Positions 6,562 through 28,038 of a DNA stretch of 32,000 bases are shown piece after piece. Below the pieces are notes generated by a model, which saw only the letters and a list, made by a program, of their open reading frames with translations, made no database searches and had not been told where the DNA came from. The DNA is from an archaeon. GTDB lineage: Archaea; Iainarchaeota; Iainarchaeia; Iainarchaeales; 1-14-0-10-31-34. A program made the translations under genes and the position numbers. Every line of letters starts with the position of its first letter. Position 1 is the first letter of the stretch. Where the stretch lies: the NCBI GenBank assembly GCA_024277355.1, contig JAJRVL010000004.1:60001-92000 (forward strand). The letters run 5' to 3'.

Positions 6562-6720
6562 TTAATCAGCAAGCATATTTGGAATTCCTTTTTCTATTCT
6601 GAATTCGTGTCTGCATTTTTTGCAGATTAACTTGTTTTTGTCTTTGAAATAATTTAATTCTGAACTGCATTTAATACAAATTAAAGAATCAAGTAAATCT
6701 TGAGATACTTCTTCAGACAT
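6562..6720 (-). CDS. Trm112-family small zinc-ribbon protein (not in the supplied ORF track)
   Basis: My translation of the reverse strand: MSEEVSQDLLDSLICIKCSSELNYFKDKNKLICKKCRHEFRIEKGIPNMLAD* (52 aa). It has CxxC...CxxC and the hallmark C-terminal GIPNML. The ATG overlaps the upstream GT4 stop by 8 nt (ATGTCTGA). GAGG lies 9 nt upstream. Confidence 0.7.
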   Translation of the reverse strand: MSEEVSQDLLDSLICIKCSSELNYFKDKNKLICKKCRHEFRIEKGIPNMLAD

Positions 6721-7792
6721 GTTTTTTTTCCTCTAAAACTTCTTTATATAAATTTTCAATTTTTTCTGCAATAACTTTAACATCAAATTCATTTAATACT
6801 TTTTGTCTTGCTTTTTTTCCTAATTGTCTGCATAAAGAATCAGAAGAAAGCAAAGAAATTAAATGTTTTTTTAATTGTTCTTTATTTCCTTTTTCAAAAA
6901 TTAATCCTTCGCCTGTTCCTATTTGATCTTTTATTCCAAATGCATCTGAAGCAATTATTCCGCATTCAGAACTCATTGCTTCTAATATTACTACCGGCAT
7001 TACTTCAAAAAAAGAAGGTAAAATAAAAATTGAAGCATTACCAAAAAAGAAGGGAAGTTCTTTATGATTAACAAAACCAAAAAATTCATGATTAATTTCA
7101 GCTTTTTCTGCCTGTTCTTCTAATTCTTTTCTTAAAGGACCTGCGCCTATTATTTGTAATTCAAATTCAAAGTCTTTTTTTATTTCTCCTAAAACTTCAA
7201 TTAATAAACTTAAATTTTTTTCTTTAGCTAATCTTCCAACAAAAAGAATTTTGTTTTTTTCTTTTTGTTTTGGAACAAAAACTTCTGAATCAACAAAATT
7301 AGGAATAAAAACTACTTTGTTTTTATCTTCAATTTTTTCCTGAATTATTTTTTGTATTTCTGAACTTAAAGCAATAATTCTGTCTGCTTTATTGTAAACC
7401 TGATTCTGAAAAAAATTAAAGACTGGTGTAAAAAAAGTTTTATGAAATCTTGCTTCAGGTAAATTATACCAGTTATGTTCTGAATAAACTAACGGTTTAT
7501 CTAAAAAAGGAAATGCAGTAAGCGGATAATGACAATGAATTATTTCTCCTTTAACTAAATTCTTTTTTTTATAACAGTTTAACATTGAAAGAAAATTATG
7601 AATTCTTCCATTTTTTGTTTTTAAGCCGATTTCAACTGAATTACTTAAACTGGATTTTGAAGCATATAATTGTATTTCATTTCCTTTTTTTTCTAATTGT
7701 TTAATTAAATCATATTCTAGTATTTCTATTCCTCCTTTTTTTGGAGGAAAAACATCAATTACTGAACCTGTGCTGATAAAAGTGATTTTCAT
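6713..7792 (-). CDS. glycosyltransferase, GT4 (GT-B) family
   Basis: C-terminal GT4 signature FFEVMPVVILEAMSSECGIIASDAFGIKDQI...GLIFE (EX7E region) and the linker ILFVGRLAKEKN. Its start overlaps the upstream GT2 stop (ATGA). Confidence 0.85.
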   Translation of the reverse strand: MKITFISTGSVIDVFPPKKGGIEILEYDLIKQLEKKGNEIQLYASKSSLSNSVEIGLKTKNGRIHNFLSMLNCYKKKNLVKGEIIHCHYPLTAFPFLDKPLVYSEHNWYNLPEARFHKTFFTPVFNFFQNQVYNKADRIIALSSEIQKIIQEKIEDKNKVVFIPNFVDSEVFVPKQKEKNKILFVGRLAKEKNLSLLIEVLGEIKKDFEFELQIIGAGPLRKELEEQAEKAEINHEFFGFVNHKELPFFFGNASIFILPSFFEVMPVVILEAMSSECGIIASDAFGIKDQIGTGEGLIFEKGNKEQLKKHLISLLSSDSLCRQLGKKARQKVLNEFDVKVIAEKIENLYKEVLEEKKHV

Positions 7793-8928
7793 TTTTTCAT
7801 CTTTTCGTCATATAATTCTTTTATTGTTTTAACTAAAACTGAACTTGCAATTAATTGTATTCCAATAAACAACGAAGTCAAGCCAAGTAATGGAATAGTA
7901 AAATGAATTGAATTTGAACTAAATAAAACTAATGCAAAACCTAAAACAAAAAAGAATATTCCTGTTAAATTATATTTAGATAAAATATATCTATCATAAG
8001 CCCATTTATAGACTATAGCTGTGTTTAATTTCCTGTAAAATAATTTTGAAACAAAATTTGCAAGAAAACCAAAAAAAACCAATGAAATTCCAACTAATAA
8101 AAGTGAAGTAATTAAAAAAATTCTTCTTAATCCAAATGCATCAAAAGTCATTCCAGATAAAAGGAAAGGATAAAATAAAATTATGCCTGCTAAAATAAAT
8201 AATATTCCAATTGAACCAAATAATTTTAATGGATTATATAATTTTACTACTTCAAGAATTGAAAACAAAAAATTAAATCCATGTTTTACACTGTTTAATT
8301 TTGAATCTCCTGTTCTTTCAGAATATTTTATTGGAGTGAAATCTATTTTCCATTTTTTGTGGACTGCCATTGTAGTCATTGCAGGTGTAAAAGAAAGCCC
8401 GTTAGGCAAAGAATCAAATTGCAACGCTAATTTTCTTTTTAGTACTCTCATTCCTGAAGCAGTGTCTTTTACCTGAGAACTCCCAAAAAAATTCAATAAC
8501 CAAACAAACATTTTATTTCCAATTAATCTTTGAGCAGGCATTTTTGTTCCTTTACCTAATCTTGATCCAATAACCATTTCAGAATTTTTTAATAATAAAA
8601 ATGAAACAAGATTAGTCATTTCTTTTATTGGATAAGTTCCATCTGCATCATAAAACGCAATTAAATCTGAATTAGAATTTTTTATGCCTGTTTTTATTGC
8701 TGCGCCGTAACCTTTGTTTTTTTCATGTTCAATTAATTTAACTTCAGGAATAAACTTTTGAATTAAATTTTTAGTTTTATCTGTTGAACCATCATCTACA
8801 ATAATTATTTCAACTTCTTTTACTGTTGTTCGATTAATTATTCTTTGTTTTTCTGCTAATGACTGGCGGATAGTTGAAGAAATAGCTTTTTCTTCATTTA
8901 AAGCCGGAATAATTATTGTTAATTTCAT
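7789..8928 (-). CDS. membrane-anchored GT2; polyprenyl-phosphate sugar synthase type (DPM1/GtrB/ArnC-like)
   Basis: IIIPALNEE, VDDGSTDKT, KNKGYGAAIKTG, FYDADGTYP (DxD), DTASGMRV, SFTPAMT, YSERTGDSKL, then about four C-terminal TM helices. Confidence 0.8.
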   Translation of the reverse strand: MKLTIIIPALNEEKAISSTIRQSLAEKQRIINRTTVKEVEIIIVDDGSTDKTKNLIQKFIPEVKLIEHEKNKGYGAAIKTGIKNSNSDLIAFYDADGTYPIKEMTNLVSFLLLKNSEMVIGSRLGKGTKMPAQRLIGNKMFVWLLNFFGSSQVKDTASGMRVLKRKLALQFDSLPNGLSFTPAMTTMAVHKKWKIDFTPIKYSERTGDSKLNSVKHGFNFLFSILEVVKLYNPLKLFGSIGILFILAGIILFYPFLLSGMTFDAFGLRRIFLITSLLLVGISLVFFGFLANFVSKLFYRKLNTAIVYKWAYDRYILSKYNLTGIFFFVLGFALVLFSSNSIHFTIPLLGLTSLFIGIQLIASSVLVKTIKELYDEKMKK

Positions 8929-8965
8929 GATACCAAAATGTTTTAATAGAAAAGAATCTATTATG

Positions 8966-26400: not shown

Positions 26401-26486
26401 TTCTTGAACAGACTTTCAATTAGGAAACAAAAAAATAATCGCTATATAAGATATAATCAATCAAAAAAGCCAGTGAAACACATAAG

Positions 26487-26495
26487 ATTTAAATG
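26487..26495 (+). promoter_or_regulatory. TATA-like box (ATTTAAATG) upstream of the 505-aa membrane protein gene
   Basis: About 30 nt upstream of ATG 26521, within the largest intergenic region of the window (155 nt, divergent). Confidence 0.3.
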
Positions 26496-26520
26496 CAATA
26501 AAAGCGTTTTTTAATTCAAG

Positions 26521-28038
26521 ATGAAATTAAATCAAAACTTGCTGATAATTTTATGTTTAATAATAACAGTTTTATTTACAGTTAACTCAATTCATTCAGA
26601 TTATCCTCTGCCTTTTCATTCAGAAGAATACGATCATTTAATTTTAGCAAAAGAATCAACTCAGGGAAAAATTGAATTAGGATTAAACTGGGAAATAAGT
26701 TTCAGTGTAATGCTTGCAGTAATTAATGCATTAATGTTAAATAATTTAAATAAATTCTTAATTTTTATTCCAATAATTTCAGGTTTAATTTTAGCTTTAA
26801 GTTCATTTATTTTAGGAAGATTTCTATTCAAAAACAATTTAGCAGGACTATTATTCAGTTTATTTGCTTTAATGATTCCAAGCAACCCAAGTCTAATGGG
26901 CTTAATGTTTGCAACACCAAACTCAATGGCATTAAGTTTAATCCCACTGCTGTTATTCTTGTTTTTAAAGGGAACAACCCACAAAAAAACAGCTTTTGTA
27001 TTCATGATTTTGTTTGCTTTAACTACTATAATTCATCCAGCTTTTACTTTAATTTTAATTCCTTTAATTGTCATTTACTTAGTTTTAAATCCAAAATTAT
27101 TTCAAAAAAACCAGTTAAAAATAGCAATAACCATAGTATTACTGATAATTTTAATGCCTGTTTTTGCTTCAAGAATTGGAACTGAAGTTTCATTAACTCA
27201 TCAAAGTTTAACTGAAATAACAAAAAATGCAGGAAAAGTTCTAATATGGGAGTCAATAACTCAATATGCTCCAAAATTCTTTCTAAAAGACTTTATTGGC
27301 TATTATTTAATTGGTTTAGCAGGAATAGGAACAGGATTAATTATTTTATTAAGATTATTAATTGAATTTAAAAGAAAAAAAGGAATGCATTCTTTAATGG
27401 AAAACGAATTTACTGTTTCAAAGCATCAGATTATTCTTCCAATAGCAGTAATTGCATTAAGTTTTCTTTATTTGTATTTCAATTTAAATGATTACACTTT
27501 TATTGTTCCTTATGAAAGAATGTTTTTGGTTTTAATGCTGTTTATGCTGTTTAATGCTGCTGCAGGAACCTATTTAATCTGGAGAATTTTAATAAACAAA
27601 ATCAGTGAACAAACATTAAAGCCTTTTACAGTTGTTTTTGTTGTTTTAATTTTGTTTTTTTTGTTAACTGTTCCTTTTTCTCAAAAAACACAATTATACA
27701 AAAACATCGAAACAAGTGGAATTTCTTCTTTGGATTGGATTGAAAAAAACACTGAAAAAAATTCTTCTTTTATTGCCGTTCCAAAAAATTCTTTGGTAAT
27801 AAAGTTTTTTACTGAAAGAAAAATTTTTGCTTCTCCTCCTACTCGCGCAGGATTAGCTGATTCATTTAAATTAGAGGTTTTTGCAATACAAAACTGTGAT
27901 AAAAAAAATGAAATAATTAAAAAAACTAAAGCAGATTATATTTTTGAAGACAAAGAATTTGAATGCAAATCCTTTAATAAAATTTATGACAAAAAAGACT
28001 ATAAAATTTATAAAGTTATAAAAACAAAAGATGTATAA
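26521..28038 (+). CDS. polytopic membrane protein with GT-C-like architecture (candidate lipid-linked-sugar-dependent glycosyltransferase, polymerase or ligase)
   Basis: About 11-12 TM helices. An acidic first external loop follows TM1 (PLPFHSEEYDHLILAKE). A ~110-aa soluble C-terminal domain ends CDKKNEIIKKTKADYIFEDKEFECKSFNKIYDKKDYKIYKVIK. No WWDYG motif, so it is not a canonical AglB. Confidence 0.45.
   Translation: MKLNQNLLIILCLIITVLFTVNSIHSDYPLPFHSEEYDHLILAKESTQGKIELGLNWEISFSVMLAVINALMLNNLNKFLIFIPIISGLILALSSFILGRFLFKNNLAGLLFSLFALMIPSNPSLMGLMFATPNSMALSLIPLLLFLFLKGTTHKKTAFVFMILFALTTIIHPAFTLILIPLIVIYLVLNPKLFQKNQLKIAITIVLLIILMPVFASRIGTEVSLTHQSLTEITKNAGKVLIWESITQYAPKFFLKDFIGYYLIGLAGIGTGLIILLRLLIEFKRKKGMHSLMENEFTVSKHQIILPIAVIALSFLYLYFNLNDYTFIVPYERMFLVLMLFMLFNAAAGTYLIWRILINKISEQTLKPFTVVFVVLILFFLLTVPFSQKTQLYKNIETSGISSLDWIEKNTEKNSSFIAVPKNSLVIKFFTERKIFASPPTRAGLADSFKLEVFAIQNCDKKNEIIKKTKADYIFEDKEFECKSFNKIYDKKDYKIYKVIKTKDV

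What the first reader, a model, noticed from the sequence alone, without database searches (positions are those of the whole stretch)
6562..28038. A 21.5-kb glycan-assembly island with an ABC-2 exporter but no recognisable initiating transferase, Wzx flippase or AglB
The interval contains 8 GT4-like and 4 GT2 glycosyltransferases, 2 class I methyltransferases, 1 SDR epimerase/dehydratase and a Wzm/Wzt-like ABC-2 pair. It also has a Trm112-like ORF and 5 uncharacterised membrane/secreted proteins. These are packed into eight alternating-strand blocks, with ATGA-type overlaps inside blocks. In bacterial ABC-transporter-dependent pathways (O-antigen, teichoic acid, capsule), a complete lipid-linked polymer is built in the cytoplasm and exported by Wzm/Wzt. 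Known archaeal N-glycosylation pathways instead use Wzx-like flippase candidates and AglB. Here I see no polyprenyl-phosphate hexose-1-phosphate transferase (WecA/AglH/WbaP-like), no MOP/Wzx-type protein and no WWDYG oligosaccharyltransferase. The initiating and final transfer steps are therefore either encoded elsewhere or carried out by the unassigned membrane proteins. For a reduced genome, devoting this much sequence to one glycan is striking. An ABC-dependent heteropolysaccharide or glycoconjugate pathway in such an archaeon would be poorly charted territory.
Basis: partly seen in the sequence, partly recalled or inferred. Interest (0 to 1): 0.7.

Follow-up and report, generated by a model that had tools for sequence, protein, structure and literature searches.

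The report
Archaeal surface-glycan locus with ABC exporter

Summary
The gene inventory is confirmed. There are 7 clear GT4 and 1 degenerate GT-B, 4 GT2, 2 SAM methyltransferases, 1 SDR, an ABC-2 pair and a Trm112-like ORF, in eight strand blocks that are 98% coding. One correction: two of the "five unknown membrane ORFs" are halves of a single ~640-aa gene, broken by a 1-nt deletion in a T-run.

No WecA/WbaP, Wzx or WWDYG protein is present. However, the GT2 next to the ABC genes is a DPMS/AglJ/ArnC-type polyprenyl-phosphate hexosyltransferase with 4 C-terminal TM helices. That is the enzyme type which starts Dol-P-linked N-glycans in Haloferax and Methanococcus.

The 505-aa membrane protein is a GT-C. 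Its predicted fold is closest to STT3/PglB/AglB, and its C-terminal domain aligns with A. fulgidus AglB-S1/S2. The whole family has "LPKNS" where AglB has WWDYG.

The permease is Wzm/TagG-like. The ATPase is short and DrrA/ABCA-like.

The locus is syntenic in at least 6 Iainarchaeota relatives, so it is not a foreign island. The GT-C's most conserved neighbour is a giant CARDB surface protein.

Verdict: a new variant of a known kind, of moderate interest.

The parts
6562..6720 (-). Trm112-like zinc-ribbon protein (52 aa), overlapping the start of the GT4 gene. Candidate partner of the two methyltransferases (inference).
   Evidence: Pfam Trm112p 28.1 bits (cut-off 22) and NCBIfam Trm112_arch 4.4e-7. 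Found in the same position in L002, L003 and L004.
6713..7792 (-). GT4 glycosyltransferase (GT4a), part of the conserved core.
   Evidence: Glycos_transf_1 5e-39. 61-72% identical orthologues in L002-L004.
7789..8928 (-). GT2 polyprenyl-phosphate hexosyltransferase of the DPMS/AglJ/ArnC type, with 4 C-terminal TM helices. Candidate initiating enzyme or Dol-P-sugar donor synthase.
   Evidence: TIGR04182 AglJ 1.4e-36 over model positions 2-285 of 293, below cut-off. PDB: PfDPMS 5mlz 3.7e-13 and full-length ArnC. TM helices from hydropathy.
9028..9765 (+). ABC ATPase, 245 aa, with no C-terminal carbohydrate-binding domain. DrrA/ABCA-type.
   Evidence: ABC_tran 6.8e-28. DrrA subfamily 1.2e-54. PDB top hits are ABCA3/4/1. 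29% identity and 91.7 bits to Legionella Wzt, against 33% and 100 bits to E. coli YadG.
9762..10559 (+). ABC-2 permease, Wzm/TagG-like, translationally coupled to the ATPase (ATGA overlap).
   Evidence: ABC2_membrane. Family profile against PDB: Aquifex Wzm 2.3e-15, TarG, KpsM, Mtb Wzm. 60.8 bits to Legionella Wzm against 33.5 bits to E. coli YadH. JGI names homologues polysaccharide/polyol-phosphate export permease.
10562..11194 (-). Class I SAM methyltransferase (MT1).
   Evidence: Methyltransf_11 8.5e-22.
11247..12278 (+). GT2 with C-terminal TM helices (GT2b).
   Evidence: Glycos_transf_2 4.8e-31. AglG-like 4.6e-24, below cut-off. TM helices.
12275..13426 (+). GT4 (GT4b).
   Evidence: Glycos_transf_1 1.9e-36.
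13423..14382 (+). GT2 with C-terminal TM helices (GT2c).
   Evidence: Glycos_transf_2 1.1e-34. TM helices.
14354..15433 (-). GT4 (GT4c).
   Evidence: Glycos_transf_1 1.3e-37.
15430..16617 (-). GT4 (GT4d).
   Evidence: Glycos_transf_1 1.4e-29 and Glyco_transf_4 4.3e-23.
16617..17300 (-). Class I SAM methyltransferase (MT2). The best-conserved accessory gene, 59-79% identical in relatives.
   Evidence: Methyltransf_11 4.5e-18. Synteny.
17287..18432 (-). GT4 (GT4e).
   Evidence: Glycos_transf_1 9.4e-38.
18434..19321 (-). SDR sugar-nucleotide epimerase/dehydratase.
   Evidence: Epimerase 2.2e-38. LegB/RmlB-like, below cut-offs.
19423..20541 (+). GT4 (GT4f).
   Evidence: Glycos_transf_1 3e-29.
20549..21403 (-). 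Soluble GT2 (GT2d).
   Evidence: Glycos_transf_2 3.3e-27. No TM helices.
21400..22539 (-). Degenerate GT-B/GT4-like protein (GTBx).
   Evidence: No Pfam hit. BshA/VpsD/HpsO ~1e-3. The orthologue in L003 carries Glycos_transf_1.
22536..23633 (-). GT4 (GT4g).
   Evidence: Glycos_transf_1 5.8e-35.
23652..25573 (-). One gene for a ~640-aa polytopic membrane protein of unknown family (M640). In the window it is broken by a 1-nt deletion in a T-run (T6 at 24819-24824; relatives have T7).
   Evidence: Alignment to the L001 625-aa protein. Reconstruction. Ten full-length homologues. T7 in relatives. No Pfam, PDB or fold match.
25548..25967 (-). 139-aa protein with a signal peptide, a beta-rich domain and a C-terminal TM anchor (S139).
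   Evidence: Hydropathy. No family. Conserved next to M640 and M133 in all relatives that have them.
25964..26365 (-). 133-aa small membrane protein with about 4 TM helices (M133).
   Evidence: Hydropathy. No family. Conserved in the module.
26521..28038 (+). 505-aa GT-C glycosyltransferase with an STT3/PglB/AglB-like predicted fold and an AglB-S-like C-terminal domain, but no WWDYG motif. Candidate extracytoplasmic transferase.
   Evidence: AF2 pLDDT 73.7, pTM 0.75. Foldseek: STT3 3.5e-8 (TMq 0.61), PglB, DPY19, AfAglB, then ArnT 9e-4. Profile against PDB: AglB-S2 3vu0 0.0034 and AglB-S1 3vgp 0.014, with WWDYG aligned to LPKNS. Pfam gives only DUF6541/DUF6798.
28802..32000 (-). Giant CARDB-domain surface protein gene, outside the finding and running off the window. 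It has C-terminal TM helices and an in-frame TAA at 29864-29866. It is the most conserved neighbour of the GT-C and a candidate acceptor (inference).
   Evidence: CARDB 4.6e-35. 54% identical to the single 1234-aa ORF of L001 across the stop. Adjacent to the GT-C in L001 and L007-L012, L014 and L015.

Best explanation
The interval is a vertically inherited cell-surface glycosylation locus of an Iainarchaeota (Diapherotrites, DPANN) archaeon. It is built like an archaeal 'agl' cluster, but it uses a Wzm-type ABC-2 exporter.

Proposed mechanism:
1. The DPMS/AglJ-type GT2 (7789-8928) puts the first hexose on dolichol phosphate at the cytoplasmic face.
2. GT4a, which is conserved with it, and the other 6 GT4, 3 GT2 and 1 degenerate GT-B extend the lipid-linked glycan. 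The SDR supplies a modified sugar nucleotide. The two SAM methyltransferases, possibly with the Trm112-like partner, methylate sugars.
3. The ABC-2 pair moves the lipid-linked glycan across the membrane. Its ATPase is short and has no carbohydrate-binding module, so the chain end would not be read.
4. Outside, the 505-aa STT3-fold GT-C transfers the glycan to an acceptor, most likely the neighbouring giant CARDB surface protein. M640, S139 and M133 may assist. Because the WWDYG motif that reads the Ser/Thr of N-X-S/T is absent, the acceptor site is probably not a classical sequon.

What is shown: family and fold assignments, gene order, conservation, the frameshift.

What is inferred: the lipid carrier, the order of steps, the substrate of the exporter, the donor and acceptor of the GT-C, and any role of M640, S139, M133 and Trm112.
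For: - Gene families.
- GT2 7789-8928: full-length match to the AglJ model and ArnC, best PDB hit PfDPMS, 4 TM helices.
- The core Trm112-GT4-GT2 divergent from ATPase-permease is kept in relatives down to 55% permease identity, while the downstream GT/MT set changes.
- Permease: Aquifex Wzm 2.3e-15, then TarG, KpsM and Mtb Wzm; no prokaryotic drug exporter was hit. It is closer to a genuine Legionella Wzm (60.8 bits) than to generic YadH (33.5 bits). That Legionella gene sits in a Wzm-Wzt(Wzt_C)-MT-GT4-GT2 cluster.
- GT-C: Foldseek ranks OST catalytic subunits first. An independent sequence profile hits the AglB-S1/S2 C-terminal domains. The first external loop holds a conserved acidic motif, H-S-E-E-x-D-H.
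- The GT-C lies beside a CARDB surface protein in every relative, including the 34%-identical ones that lack the GT cluster.
- Papers: DPMS-like GT2 enzymes load Dol-P in archaeal glycoconjugate synthesis (PMC9943897). DPANN S-layer candidates are large Ig-fold proteins with a C-terminal TM helix (10.1101/2023.10.27.564410).
Against: - The ATPase resembles DrrA/ABCA-type more than Wzt-type. The BLASTP margin is small: 100 bits against 91.7 bits.
- The GT-C has no Pfam STT3 hit, only DUF6541/DUF6798; one family member hits PMT_2. NCBI names one homologue GT39.
- The AglB-S sequence match is marginal (E 0.003-0.014) and the model is of medium confidence (pLDDT 73.7).
- The GT-C is 17 kb from the GT2/ABC core. 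In distant relatives it occurs without the GT cluster (L012, L015), and the GT cluster occurs without it (L005). The two may therefore be separate units.
- Twelve monofunctional GTs fit a defined oligosaccharide better than the polymers usually handled by Wzm-Wzt.
- Two genes of the surface part are disrupted in this genome.
Confidence: 0.5

Rival explanations
1. There are two juxtaposed but separate systems.

(a) An ABC-transporter-dependent lipid-linked polysaccharide or lipoglycan (6562-23633) that stays lipid-anchored or is attached by an unidentified ligase, possibly M640.

(b) A 'three-component'-style decoration system. The DPMS-like GT2 makes a Dol-P-monosaccharide, a small membrane protein (M133?) flips it, and the GT-C adds single sugars to the CARDB surface protein or to the exported glycan. 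This would resemble AglD/AglR/AglS, DPMS/PMT, ArnC/ArnT or the systems described in PMC11127046.
For: - The GT2's best solved relatives are Dol-P-Man synthase and ArnC, which are donor synthases.
- NCBI names a GT-C homologue GT39, and one family member hits PMT_2 at 4.2e-5.
- The GT-C lacks WWDYG.
- The GT-C and the GT cluster separate in distant relatives (L005, L012, L015).
- Three-component systems are known to sit in Wzm/Wzt loci (PMC11127046, found).
Against: - Foldseek places OST catalytic subunits (E 3.5e-8, TMq 0.61) well ahead of ArnT (9e-4, TMq 0.44). No PMT structure is in the top 50.
- The C-terminal domain aligns with AglB-S, not with ArnT or PMT.
- The GT2 is 17 kb from the GT-C and is tightly paired with the ABC genes instead.
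- M133 has no GtrA or SMR hit.
- In L015 the GT-C has no GT2 nearby.
Confidence: 0.3
2. The ABC-2 pair is a lipid or drug exporter that merely lies in the cluster and does not export the glycan. Translocation would be done by an unrecognised protein, for example M640 or a flippase encoded elsewhere.
For: - The ATPase is best matched by the DrrA subfamily (1.2e-54) and by ABCA lipid exporters in the PDB.
- The permease's best NCBIfam hit is drrB (4e-9).
- There is no Wzt_C domain.
Against: - All NCBIfam hits are far below cut-off and reflect general ABC-2 similarity.
- The family profile hits Wzm, TarG, KpsM and Mtb Wzm and no prokaryotic drug exporter.
- In a like-for-like BLASTP, the permease is nearer to Legionella Wzm than to YadH.
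- The pair is fixed divergently next to the AglJ-like GT2 in all relatives examined.
Confidence: 0.1
3. The surface-attachment end of the locus is decaying in this particular genome. M640 is frameshifted and the CARDB gene carries a premature TAA, so the pathway as a whole may be non-functional here. Alternatively, both lesions are assembly errors.
For: - T6 in the window against T7 in relatives, which splits M640.
- An in-frame TAA at 29864-29866 inside a gene that is a single ORF in L001, L006 and L012.
Against: - All 20 other genes of the interval are intact, with tight overlaps.
- A homopolymer indel is a common sequencing error.
- Both halves of each disrupted gene remain 54-62% identical to relatives, with no further lesions.
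Confidence: 0.15

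Closest known systems
Euryarchaeal Agl N-glycosylation pathways (Haloferax volcanii AglJ/G/I/E/P/D/S/B; Methanococcus AglK)
   Same: - A GT2 of the DPMS/AglJ type as candidate first enzyme on Dol-P.
- Further GT2 (AglG-like hits) and GT4 (Agl16-like hits).
- SAM methyltransferases, as with AglP.
- A GT-C enzyme at the end.
- A surface glycoprotein gene nearby.
   Different: - An ABC-2 (Wzm-like) exporter sits in the conserved core, where known archaeal pathways have only an unproven Wzx-like candidate (AglR).
- The GT-C lacks WWDYG and has no Pfam STT3 hit.
- None of the matches reaches an NCBIfam equivalog cut-off.
Bacterial ABC-transporter-dependent glycan pathways (O-antigen Wzm/Wzt including the short-Wzt Klebsiella O2a type; S-layer glycan slg clusters of Geobacillus/Paenibacillus; the Legionella massiliensis cluster L013)
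   Same: - A Wzm-like permease.
- Many cytoplasmic GT4/GT2 enzymes plus methyltransferases and an SDR in one locus.
- A conserved core with a variable GT set.
- An ATPase without a carbohydrate-binding module, as in the O2a type (from my own knowledge).
   Different: - No WecA-type initiating enzyme and no WaaL/Wzy_C ligase.
- The ATPase is nearer to DrrA/ABCA than to Wzt.
- The carrier is presumably dolichol phosphate.
- The candidate transferase is an STT3-fold GT-C.
Short archaeal oligosaccharyltransferases AglB-S1/AglB-S2 of Archaeoglobus fulgidus (PDB 3vgp, 3vu0)
   Same: - GT-C membrane domain plus a small C-terminal globular domain.
- The family profile aligns about 85 residues of that domain (E 0.0034 and 0.014).
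- The whole-protein fold is closest to STT3/PglB/AglB.
   Different: - WWDYG is replaced by LPKNS, and by unrelated residues in distant members.
- The protein is about 90 residues shorter.
- The membrane domain shows no sequence-level match to any solved GT-C.
Three-component extracytoplasmic glycosylation systems (polyprenyl-phosphate GT2 synthase + small flippase + GT-C; GtrABC, ArnC/EF/T, PMC11127046)
   Same: A polyprenyl-phosphate GT2 with TM helices, a GT-C and a small 4-TM protein are all present, inside a locus that has an ABC-2 exporter.
   Different: - The three genes are not adjacent: the GT2 is 17 kb from the GT-C.
- M133 has no GtrA or SMR signature.
- The GT-C fold is closer to OSTs than to ArnT.

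Membership tests
AglB/STT3/PglB oligosaccharyltransferase (GT66) | GT-C fold: a multi-TM domain with a long first external loop, plus a C-terminal globular domain. | tested here: met
   AF2 model pLDDT 73.7. Foldseek top 20 are STT3, PglB, DPY19 and AfAglB, E 3.5e-8 to 2e-4, TMq 0.5-0.61.
AglB/STT3/PglB oligosaccharyltransferase (GT66) | WWDYG motif at the start of the C-terminal domain (binds the +2 Ser/Thr of the sequon). | tested here: not met
   In the HMMER alignment, the AglB-S 'SWWDYGNWI' aligns with the family's 'ALPKNSLVI'. No aromatic motif is conserved in 15 family members. No WW[DE]xG occurs in any frame.
AglB/STT3/PglB oligosaccharyltransferase (GT66) | Acidic DxD-type motif in the first external loop. 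| tested here: inconclusive
   H33, E36 and D38 (HSEExDH) are invariant or nearly so in loop 1. Equivalence to the OST catalytic Asp could not be checked by superposition.
AglB/STT3/PglB oligosaccharyltransferase (GT66) | Significant match to the Pfam STT3 model (PF02516). | tested here: not met
   Only DUF6541 (11 of 15 members, best 1e-6) and DUF6798 (9 of 15). PMT_2 in one member.
AglB/STT3/PglB oligosaccharyltransferase (GT66) | DK/MI motif and en-bloc transfer of a lipid-linked oligosaccharide to Asn. | not testable with these tools
   Needs structure superposition and biochemistry.
Wzm/Wzt-type glycan ABC exporter | Permease homologous to Wzm/TagG/KpsM. | tested here: met
   Profile A4 against PDB: Aquifex Wzm 2.3e-15, TarG 3.8e-7, KpsM 9.6e-7, Mtb Wzm 3.5e-6. 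29% identity and 60.8 bits to Legionella Wzm against 33.5 bits to YadH.
Wzm/Wzt-type glycan ABC exporter | ATPase of the Wzt/TagH/KpsT clade. | tested here: inconclusive
   Best hits are DrrA (1.2e-54) and ABCA NBDs (162.7 bits). Aquifex Wzt is not among the top 60 PDB hits. BLASTP gives 100 bits to YadG against 91.7 bits to Legionella Wzt. No tree was made.
Wzm/Wzt-type glycan ABC exporter | C-terminal carbohydrate-binding domain on Wzt (present only in the cap-dependent subtype). | tested here: not met
   The ATPase is 245 aa, NBD only, with no Wzt_C. The Legionella Wzt has Wzt_C.
Wzm/Wzt-type glycan ABC exporter | Conserved linkage to glycosyltransferase genes. | tested here: met
   Same divergent arrangement with the AglJ-like GT2 and GT4, plus downstream GTs, in L002, L003 and L004.
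Polyprenyl-phosphate hexosyltransferase GT2 (DPMS / AglJ / AglD / GtrB / ArnC) | GT-A catalytic domain aligning end to end with family models. | tested here: met
   TIGR04182 AglJ 1.4e-36 over 2-285 of 293. Dol-P hexose transferase 4.5e-26. PpgS, PgfS and ArnC also hit. All are below equivalog cut-offs. PfDPMS 3.7e-13; ArnC residues 2-297.
Polyprenyl-phosphate hexosyltransferase GT2 (DPMS / AglJ / AglD / GtrB / ArnC) | C-terminal transmembrane helices. | tested here: met
   Four hydrophobic segments at residues 239-366.
Polyprenyl-phosphate hexosyltransferase GT2 (DPMS / AglJ / AglD / GtrB / ArnC) | Transfer of a sugar from a nucleotide sugar to Dol-P, and whether the product is elongated (AglJ role) or used as a donor (AglD/DPMS role). 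| not testable with these tools
   Biochemistry needed.
Canonical initiating transferases and flippases (PNPT WecA/AglH PF00953; PHPT WbaP PF02397; MOP/Wzx) | Any window ORF matching these Pfam families. | tested here: not met
   None at E <= 0.01 in any ORF of at least 80 aa. None listed in the +/-10 kb flanks of relatives.
Three-component GT2 + flippase + GT-C system | Small GtrA- or SMR-type flippase, and adjacency of the three genes. | tested here: not met
   M133 has about 4 TM helices but no Pfam, NCBIfam or PDB hit. The GT2 and GT-C are 17 kb apart.

The most novel reading that the evidence does not exclude
The 505-aa WWDYG-less STT3-fold enzyme defines a new branch of the oligosaccharyltransferase superfamily. 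Possibly working with the conserved M640/S139/M133 membrane proteins, it takes a dolichol-linked glycan delivered by a Wzm-type ABC exporter and attaches it to a giant CARDB surface protein at sites other than the N-X-S/T sequon. This would be an archaeal protein-glycosylation route with an identified translocase and a non-canonical transferase.
Probability: 0.2. Interest if true: 0.75.

Novelty: new variant of a known kind. Interest (0 to 1): 0.48.

Why it matters
As far as I know, the protein that moves lipid-linked glycans across the archaeal membrane has not been identified. Here a Wzm-like ABC-2 exporter is fixed next to an AglJ-type initiating enzyme across a DPANN lineage, which gives a concrete and clonable candidate.

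The locus also exposes a family of STT3-fold GT-C enzymes without the sequon-reading WWDYG motif. These always lie beside a putative S-layer-like protein, which hints at an unexplored acceptor specificity.

The locus is 21.5 kb of a 526.6-kb contig, about 4%. That shows how much a reduced, probably host-associated archaeon invests in its surface coat.

On the other hand, most components are ordinary GT4/GT2/MT genes, and the organism is uncultured.

Tried and rejected
- The look-up of encoding contigs with the window's 505-aa protein and with the identical P0001 found no record. The source contig could therefore not be walked, and the genome could not be searched for AglB, AglH or Wzx.
- A genome-contig scan with the permease alone found nothing. 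Alignment A2 was too divergent to use for a scan.
- The structure model of the 640-aa protein was poor (pLDDT 58). Its fold search, PDB profile search and Pfam scan of all 12 members gave nothing usable.
- hhalign of M640 against the GT-C family found only a non-significant similarity of the Cys-containing C-terminal tails (probability 1.9%). I do not rely on it.
- M133 and S139 have no PDB or Pfam relatives.
- An apparent N-terminal truncation of the Lhr helicase is only the window edge, not a second frameshift.
- I rejected the reading of the locus as a horizontally acquired island: GC is flat, there are no tRNAs or Rfam hits, and the position is conserved in relatives.
- I considered phase variation at the T-run. 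T6-7 runs are expected in a 25% GC genome, and there is no supporting evidence.

Full report

Yes. The window has 22-30% GC throughout. Between 6562 and 28038 it is 98% coding, in eight alternating-strand blocks. Seven gene junctions are ATGA overlaps and one is a GTGA overlap.

Pfam and NCBIfam scans of every ORF of at least 80 aa give:
- seven GT4 above the gathering score;
- one degenerate GT-B (21400-22539), whose orthologue in a relative still carries Glycos_transf_1;
- four GT2;
- two class I methyltransferases;
- one SDR;
- an ABC ATPase and an ABC-2 permease;
- a 52-aa Trm112-like zinc ribbon.

The one error concerns the unknown membrane proteins. ORFs 24797-25573 and 23652-24698 are two halves of one gene. 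Relatives encode a single 618-641-aa protein. Inserting one T into the T6 run at 24819-24824 restores a 640-aa reading frame that matches the relatives across the junction. Intact relatives have T7 at that site.

**2. Whose genome is it, and is this an island?**

Identical proteins come from one NCBI contig of 526,574 bp. The closest relatives are MAGs labelled Candidatus Diapherotrites, Candidatus Iainarchaeum or 'Micrarchaeota', so this is a DPANN archaeon.

The locus is not a foreign island. Five distinct relatives at about 55-75% protein identity are collinear over the part covered: GCA_964608675.1 (loci L001, L002 and L011), L008, L009, L010 and L014. The locus sits at the same place next to CTP synthase in L002 and L004.

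In more distant relatives (L003/L005 and L004, permease 55% identical) the core is unchanged: Trm112, GT4 and the AglJ-like GT2 on one strand, divergent from the ATPase and permease. The downstream GT/MT set differs there, with radical SAM/SPASM, Methyltransf_24 and a GT2-MT fusion. A conserved core with a variable outer part is typical of surface-glycan loci.

**3. The 'missing' initiating enzyme**

No PNPT (WecA/AglH), PHPT (WbaP) or MOP/Wzx protein is present in the window, or in the +/-10 kb flanks listed for relatives.

The GT2 at 7789-8928, however, aligns end to end with the AglJ model (1.4e-36). It also matches Dol-P hexose transferase, PpgS, PgfS and ArnC, all below equivalog cut-offs. 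Its best solved relative is the Pyrococcus furiosus Dol-P-mannose synthase, followed by full-length ArnC. It has four C-terminal TM helices.

From established knowledge, enzymes of this class, not WecA-like ones, put the first sugar on Dol-P in Haloferax volcanii (AglJ) and Methanococcus voltae (AglK). A haloarchaeal DPMS-like GT2 likewise loads Dol-P for an exopolysaccharide (PMC9943897).

So a recognisable initiating candidate exists. Whether its product is elongated (AglJ role) or used as a donor (AglD/DPMS role) cannot be decided here.

**4. The ABC pair**

The permease hits only Aquifex Wzm in the PDB as a single sequence. A profile of 49 homologues hits:
- Wzm at 2.3e-15;
- a eukaryotic ABCG at 3.8e-7;
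- TarG at 3.8e-7;
- KpsM at 9.6e-7;
- the mycobacterial Wzm at 3.5e-6;
- no prokaryotic drug exporter.

JGI names homologues 'polysaccharide/polyol phosphate export permease'. A distant hit is a Legionella 'TagG', which lies in a textbook Wzm-Wzt(Wzt_C)-MT-GT4-GT2 cluster. By BLASTP the permease scores 60.8 bits against that Wzm and 33.5 bits against the generic E. coli YadH.

The ATPase is different. It is 245 aa with no carbohydrate-binding module. Its best matches are the DrrA subfamily and ABCA lipid exporters. By BLASTP it scores 100 bits to YadG and 91.7 bits to the Legionella Wzt.

The transporter therefore looks like a Wzm-type channel driven by a DrrA/CcmA-type ATPase.

**5. The 'missing' AglB**

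The 505-aa protein (26521-28038) has 15 homologues. An AlphaFold model built on them has pLDDT 73.7 and pTM 0.75.

Foldseek against the PDB ranks the hits as follows:
- yeast and human STT3, PglB, DPY19 and A. fulgidus AglB first (E 3.5e-8 to 2e-4, TMq up to 0.61);
- AftA and ArnT behind (about 1e-3, TMq 0.44-0.48);
- no PMT structure in the top 50.

Independently, an HMM of the family searched against PDB sequences finds as its only near-significant hits the C-terminal globular domains of A. fulgidus AglB-S2 (3vu0, E 0.0034) and AglB-S1 (3vgp, E 0.014). In those alignments the AglB sequence 'SWWDYGNWI' lies opposite the family's 'ALPKNSLVI'. Distant family members have unrelated residues there.

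Conserved features are:
- an acidic motif HSEExDH in external loop 1;
- H172 (IIHPAF);
- P-Y-E-R at 330-333;
- two C-terminal cysteines.

Pfam sees only DUF6541 and DUF6798.

Conclusion: this is a GT-C enzyme most like oligosaccharyltransferases and probably derived from them, but it fails the defining WWDYG test. It should not be filed as AglB. Whether a canonical AglB exists elsewhere in the genome could not be tested. Other DPANN do have aglB (10.1101/2023.10.27.564410).

**6. The membrane module and the surface protein**

M640, S139 (signal peptide, beta domain, TM anchor) and M133 (about 4 TM helices) travel together in all relatives that have any of them. This includes relatives at 28-43% identity: L005, L006 and L012. 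None has any detectable family or fold.

The GT-C's most constant neighbour is a giant CARDB-domain protein with C-terminal TM helices. It lies tail to tail with the GT-C in the window, in L001, L007-L012 and L014, and in L015, where neither the GT cluster nor M640 is nearby.

In L012 and downstream in L001, the same neighbourhood also holds MG2-like proteins, a KaiC-like ATPase and TraB. In L006 an exosortase/archaeosortase-like gene lies beside the module.

Conversely, in L005 the GT cluster and M640-S139-M133 are present, but an HTH/integrase segment replaces the GT-C.

The reported interval is therefore best seen as two linked units. One is a GT/MT/ABC assembly unit (6562-23633). The other is a surface-protein unit that runs beyond the interval to the window end (23652 to beyond 32000).

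**7. Mechanism and alternatives**

The preferred model (confidence about 0.5) has these steps:
1. Dol-P priming by the AglJ-like GT2.
2. Cytoplasmic elongation and methylation.
3. Export by the Wzm-like ABC-2 transporter.
4. Transfer by the STT3-fold GT-C to the CARDB surface protein at a non-sequon site.

The main rival (about 0.3) keeps the ABC-dependent glycan. It makes the GT2 and the GT-C a Dol-P-monosaccharide decoration pair of the AglD/AglS, DPMS/PMT or three-component type (PMC11127046).

Minor rivals are that the ABC pair is unrelated to the glycan (about 0.1), and that the surface end is decaying in this genome (about 0.15; not exclusive of the others).

**8. Novelty and score**

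Glycan loci rich in GT4/GT2 genes are ordinary. Three things are not:
- a Wzm-type exporter fixed in an 'agl'-like archaeal cluster;
- a lineage-wide WWDYG-less STT3-fold enzyme;
- an uncharacterised three-protein membrane module.

I rate this a new variant of a known kind, with interest 0.48.

Noticed in passing
window 29864-29866 (gene 28802 to beyond 32000, minus strand): An in-frame TAA splits the giant CARDB surface-protein gene into 695-aa and 348-aa ORFs. Relatives encode one ORF of 1201-1351 aa, and the window sequence stays 54% identical to L001 across the stop.
   Followed up: partly
window 4251-4763: A VapB/DUF7557-like antitoxin and a ParE-family toxin pair sits between the metallophosphatase and CTP synthase. 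The syntenic relatives L002 and L004 have no such genes there.
   Followed up: no
window 2635-3453: A 272-aa ORF with no family lies between the Lhr helicase and the metallophosphatase. In L002 these two genes are adjacent, so this is probably a lineage-specific insertion.
   Followed up: no
window 6560-6562, compared with L002 6372-6845, L003 3885-4304 and L004 6300-6719: Relatives carry a YjbQ-family gene between CTP synthase (or a GT2) and the Trm112-like gene. It is absent from the window, where the CTP synthase stop and the Trm112 stop are 1 nt apart.
   Followed up: no
window 11535-11587 and 21159-21211: A 53-nt stretch is 94% identical (inverted) between two GT2 paralogues on opposite strands. 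It covers the ARN(S/T)GIKNSSG motif. This could reflect gene conversion or recent paralogy.
   Followed up: no
window about 200-380 (Lhr helicase, plus strand): A Lys/Glu-rich low-complexity insert (KKEINKLKKELKELEKNKKQLKNKEKE...) lies within the DEAD domain of the Lhr-type helicase, with internal 36-nt periodic repeats.
   Followed up: no
L001 15227-21312; L012 653-7115; L015 13957-17195: Beyond the CARDB gene, relatives share a neighbourhood of a ~420-aa protein, a ~670-aa MG2-like protein, a KaiC-like ATPase and a TraB/PrgY/GumN protein. This may be a larger cell-surface gene neighbourhood that includes the GT-C.
   Followed up: partly
L006 4920-5786: An Exosortase_EpsH-family (archaeosortase-like) gene lies between a GT4 cluster and the M133-S139-M640-GT-C module in a 35%-identity relative.
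   Followed up: no
L005 6527-8659: In GCA_040755695.1 a phage-integrase gene and HTH regulators lie directly beyond M133, where the window and close relatives have the GT-C and the CARDB gene. This suggests a rearrangement or insertion at that point.
   Followed up: no
window 23652-25573 and 26521-28038 (C-terminal tails): M640 and the GT-C end in similar Cys-x(n)-Cys ... IY(E/D)N/K..YK.Y tails. hhalign does not find this significant (probability 1.9%).
   Followed up: partly
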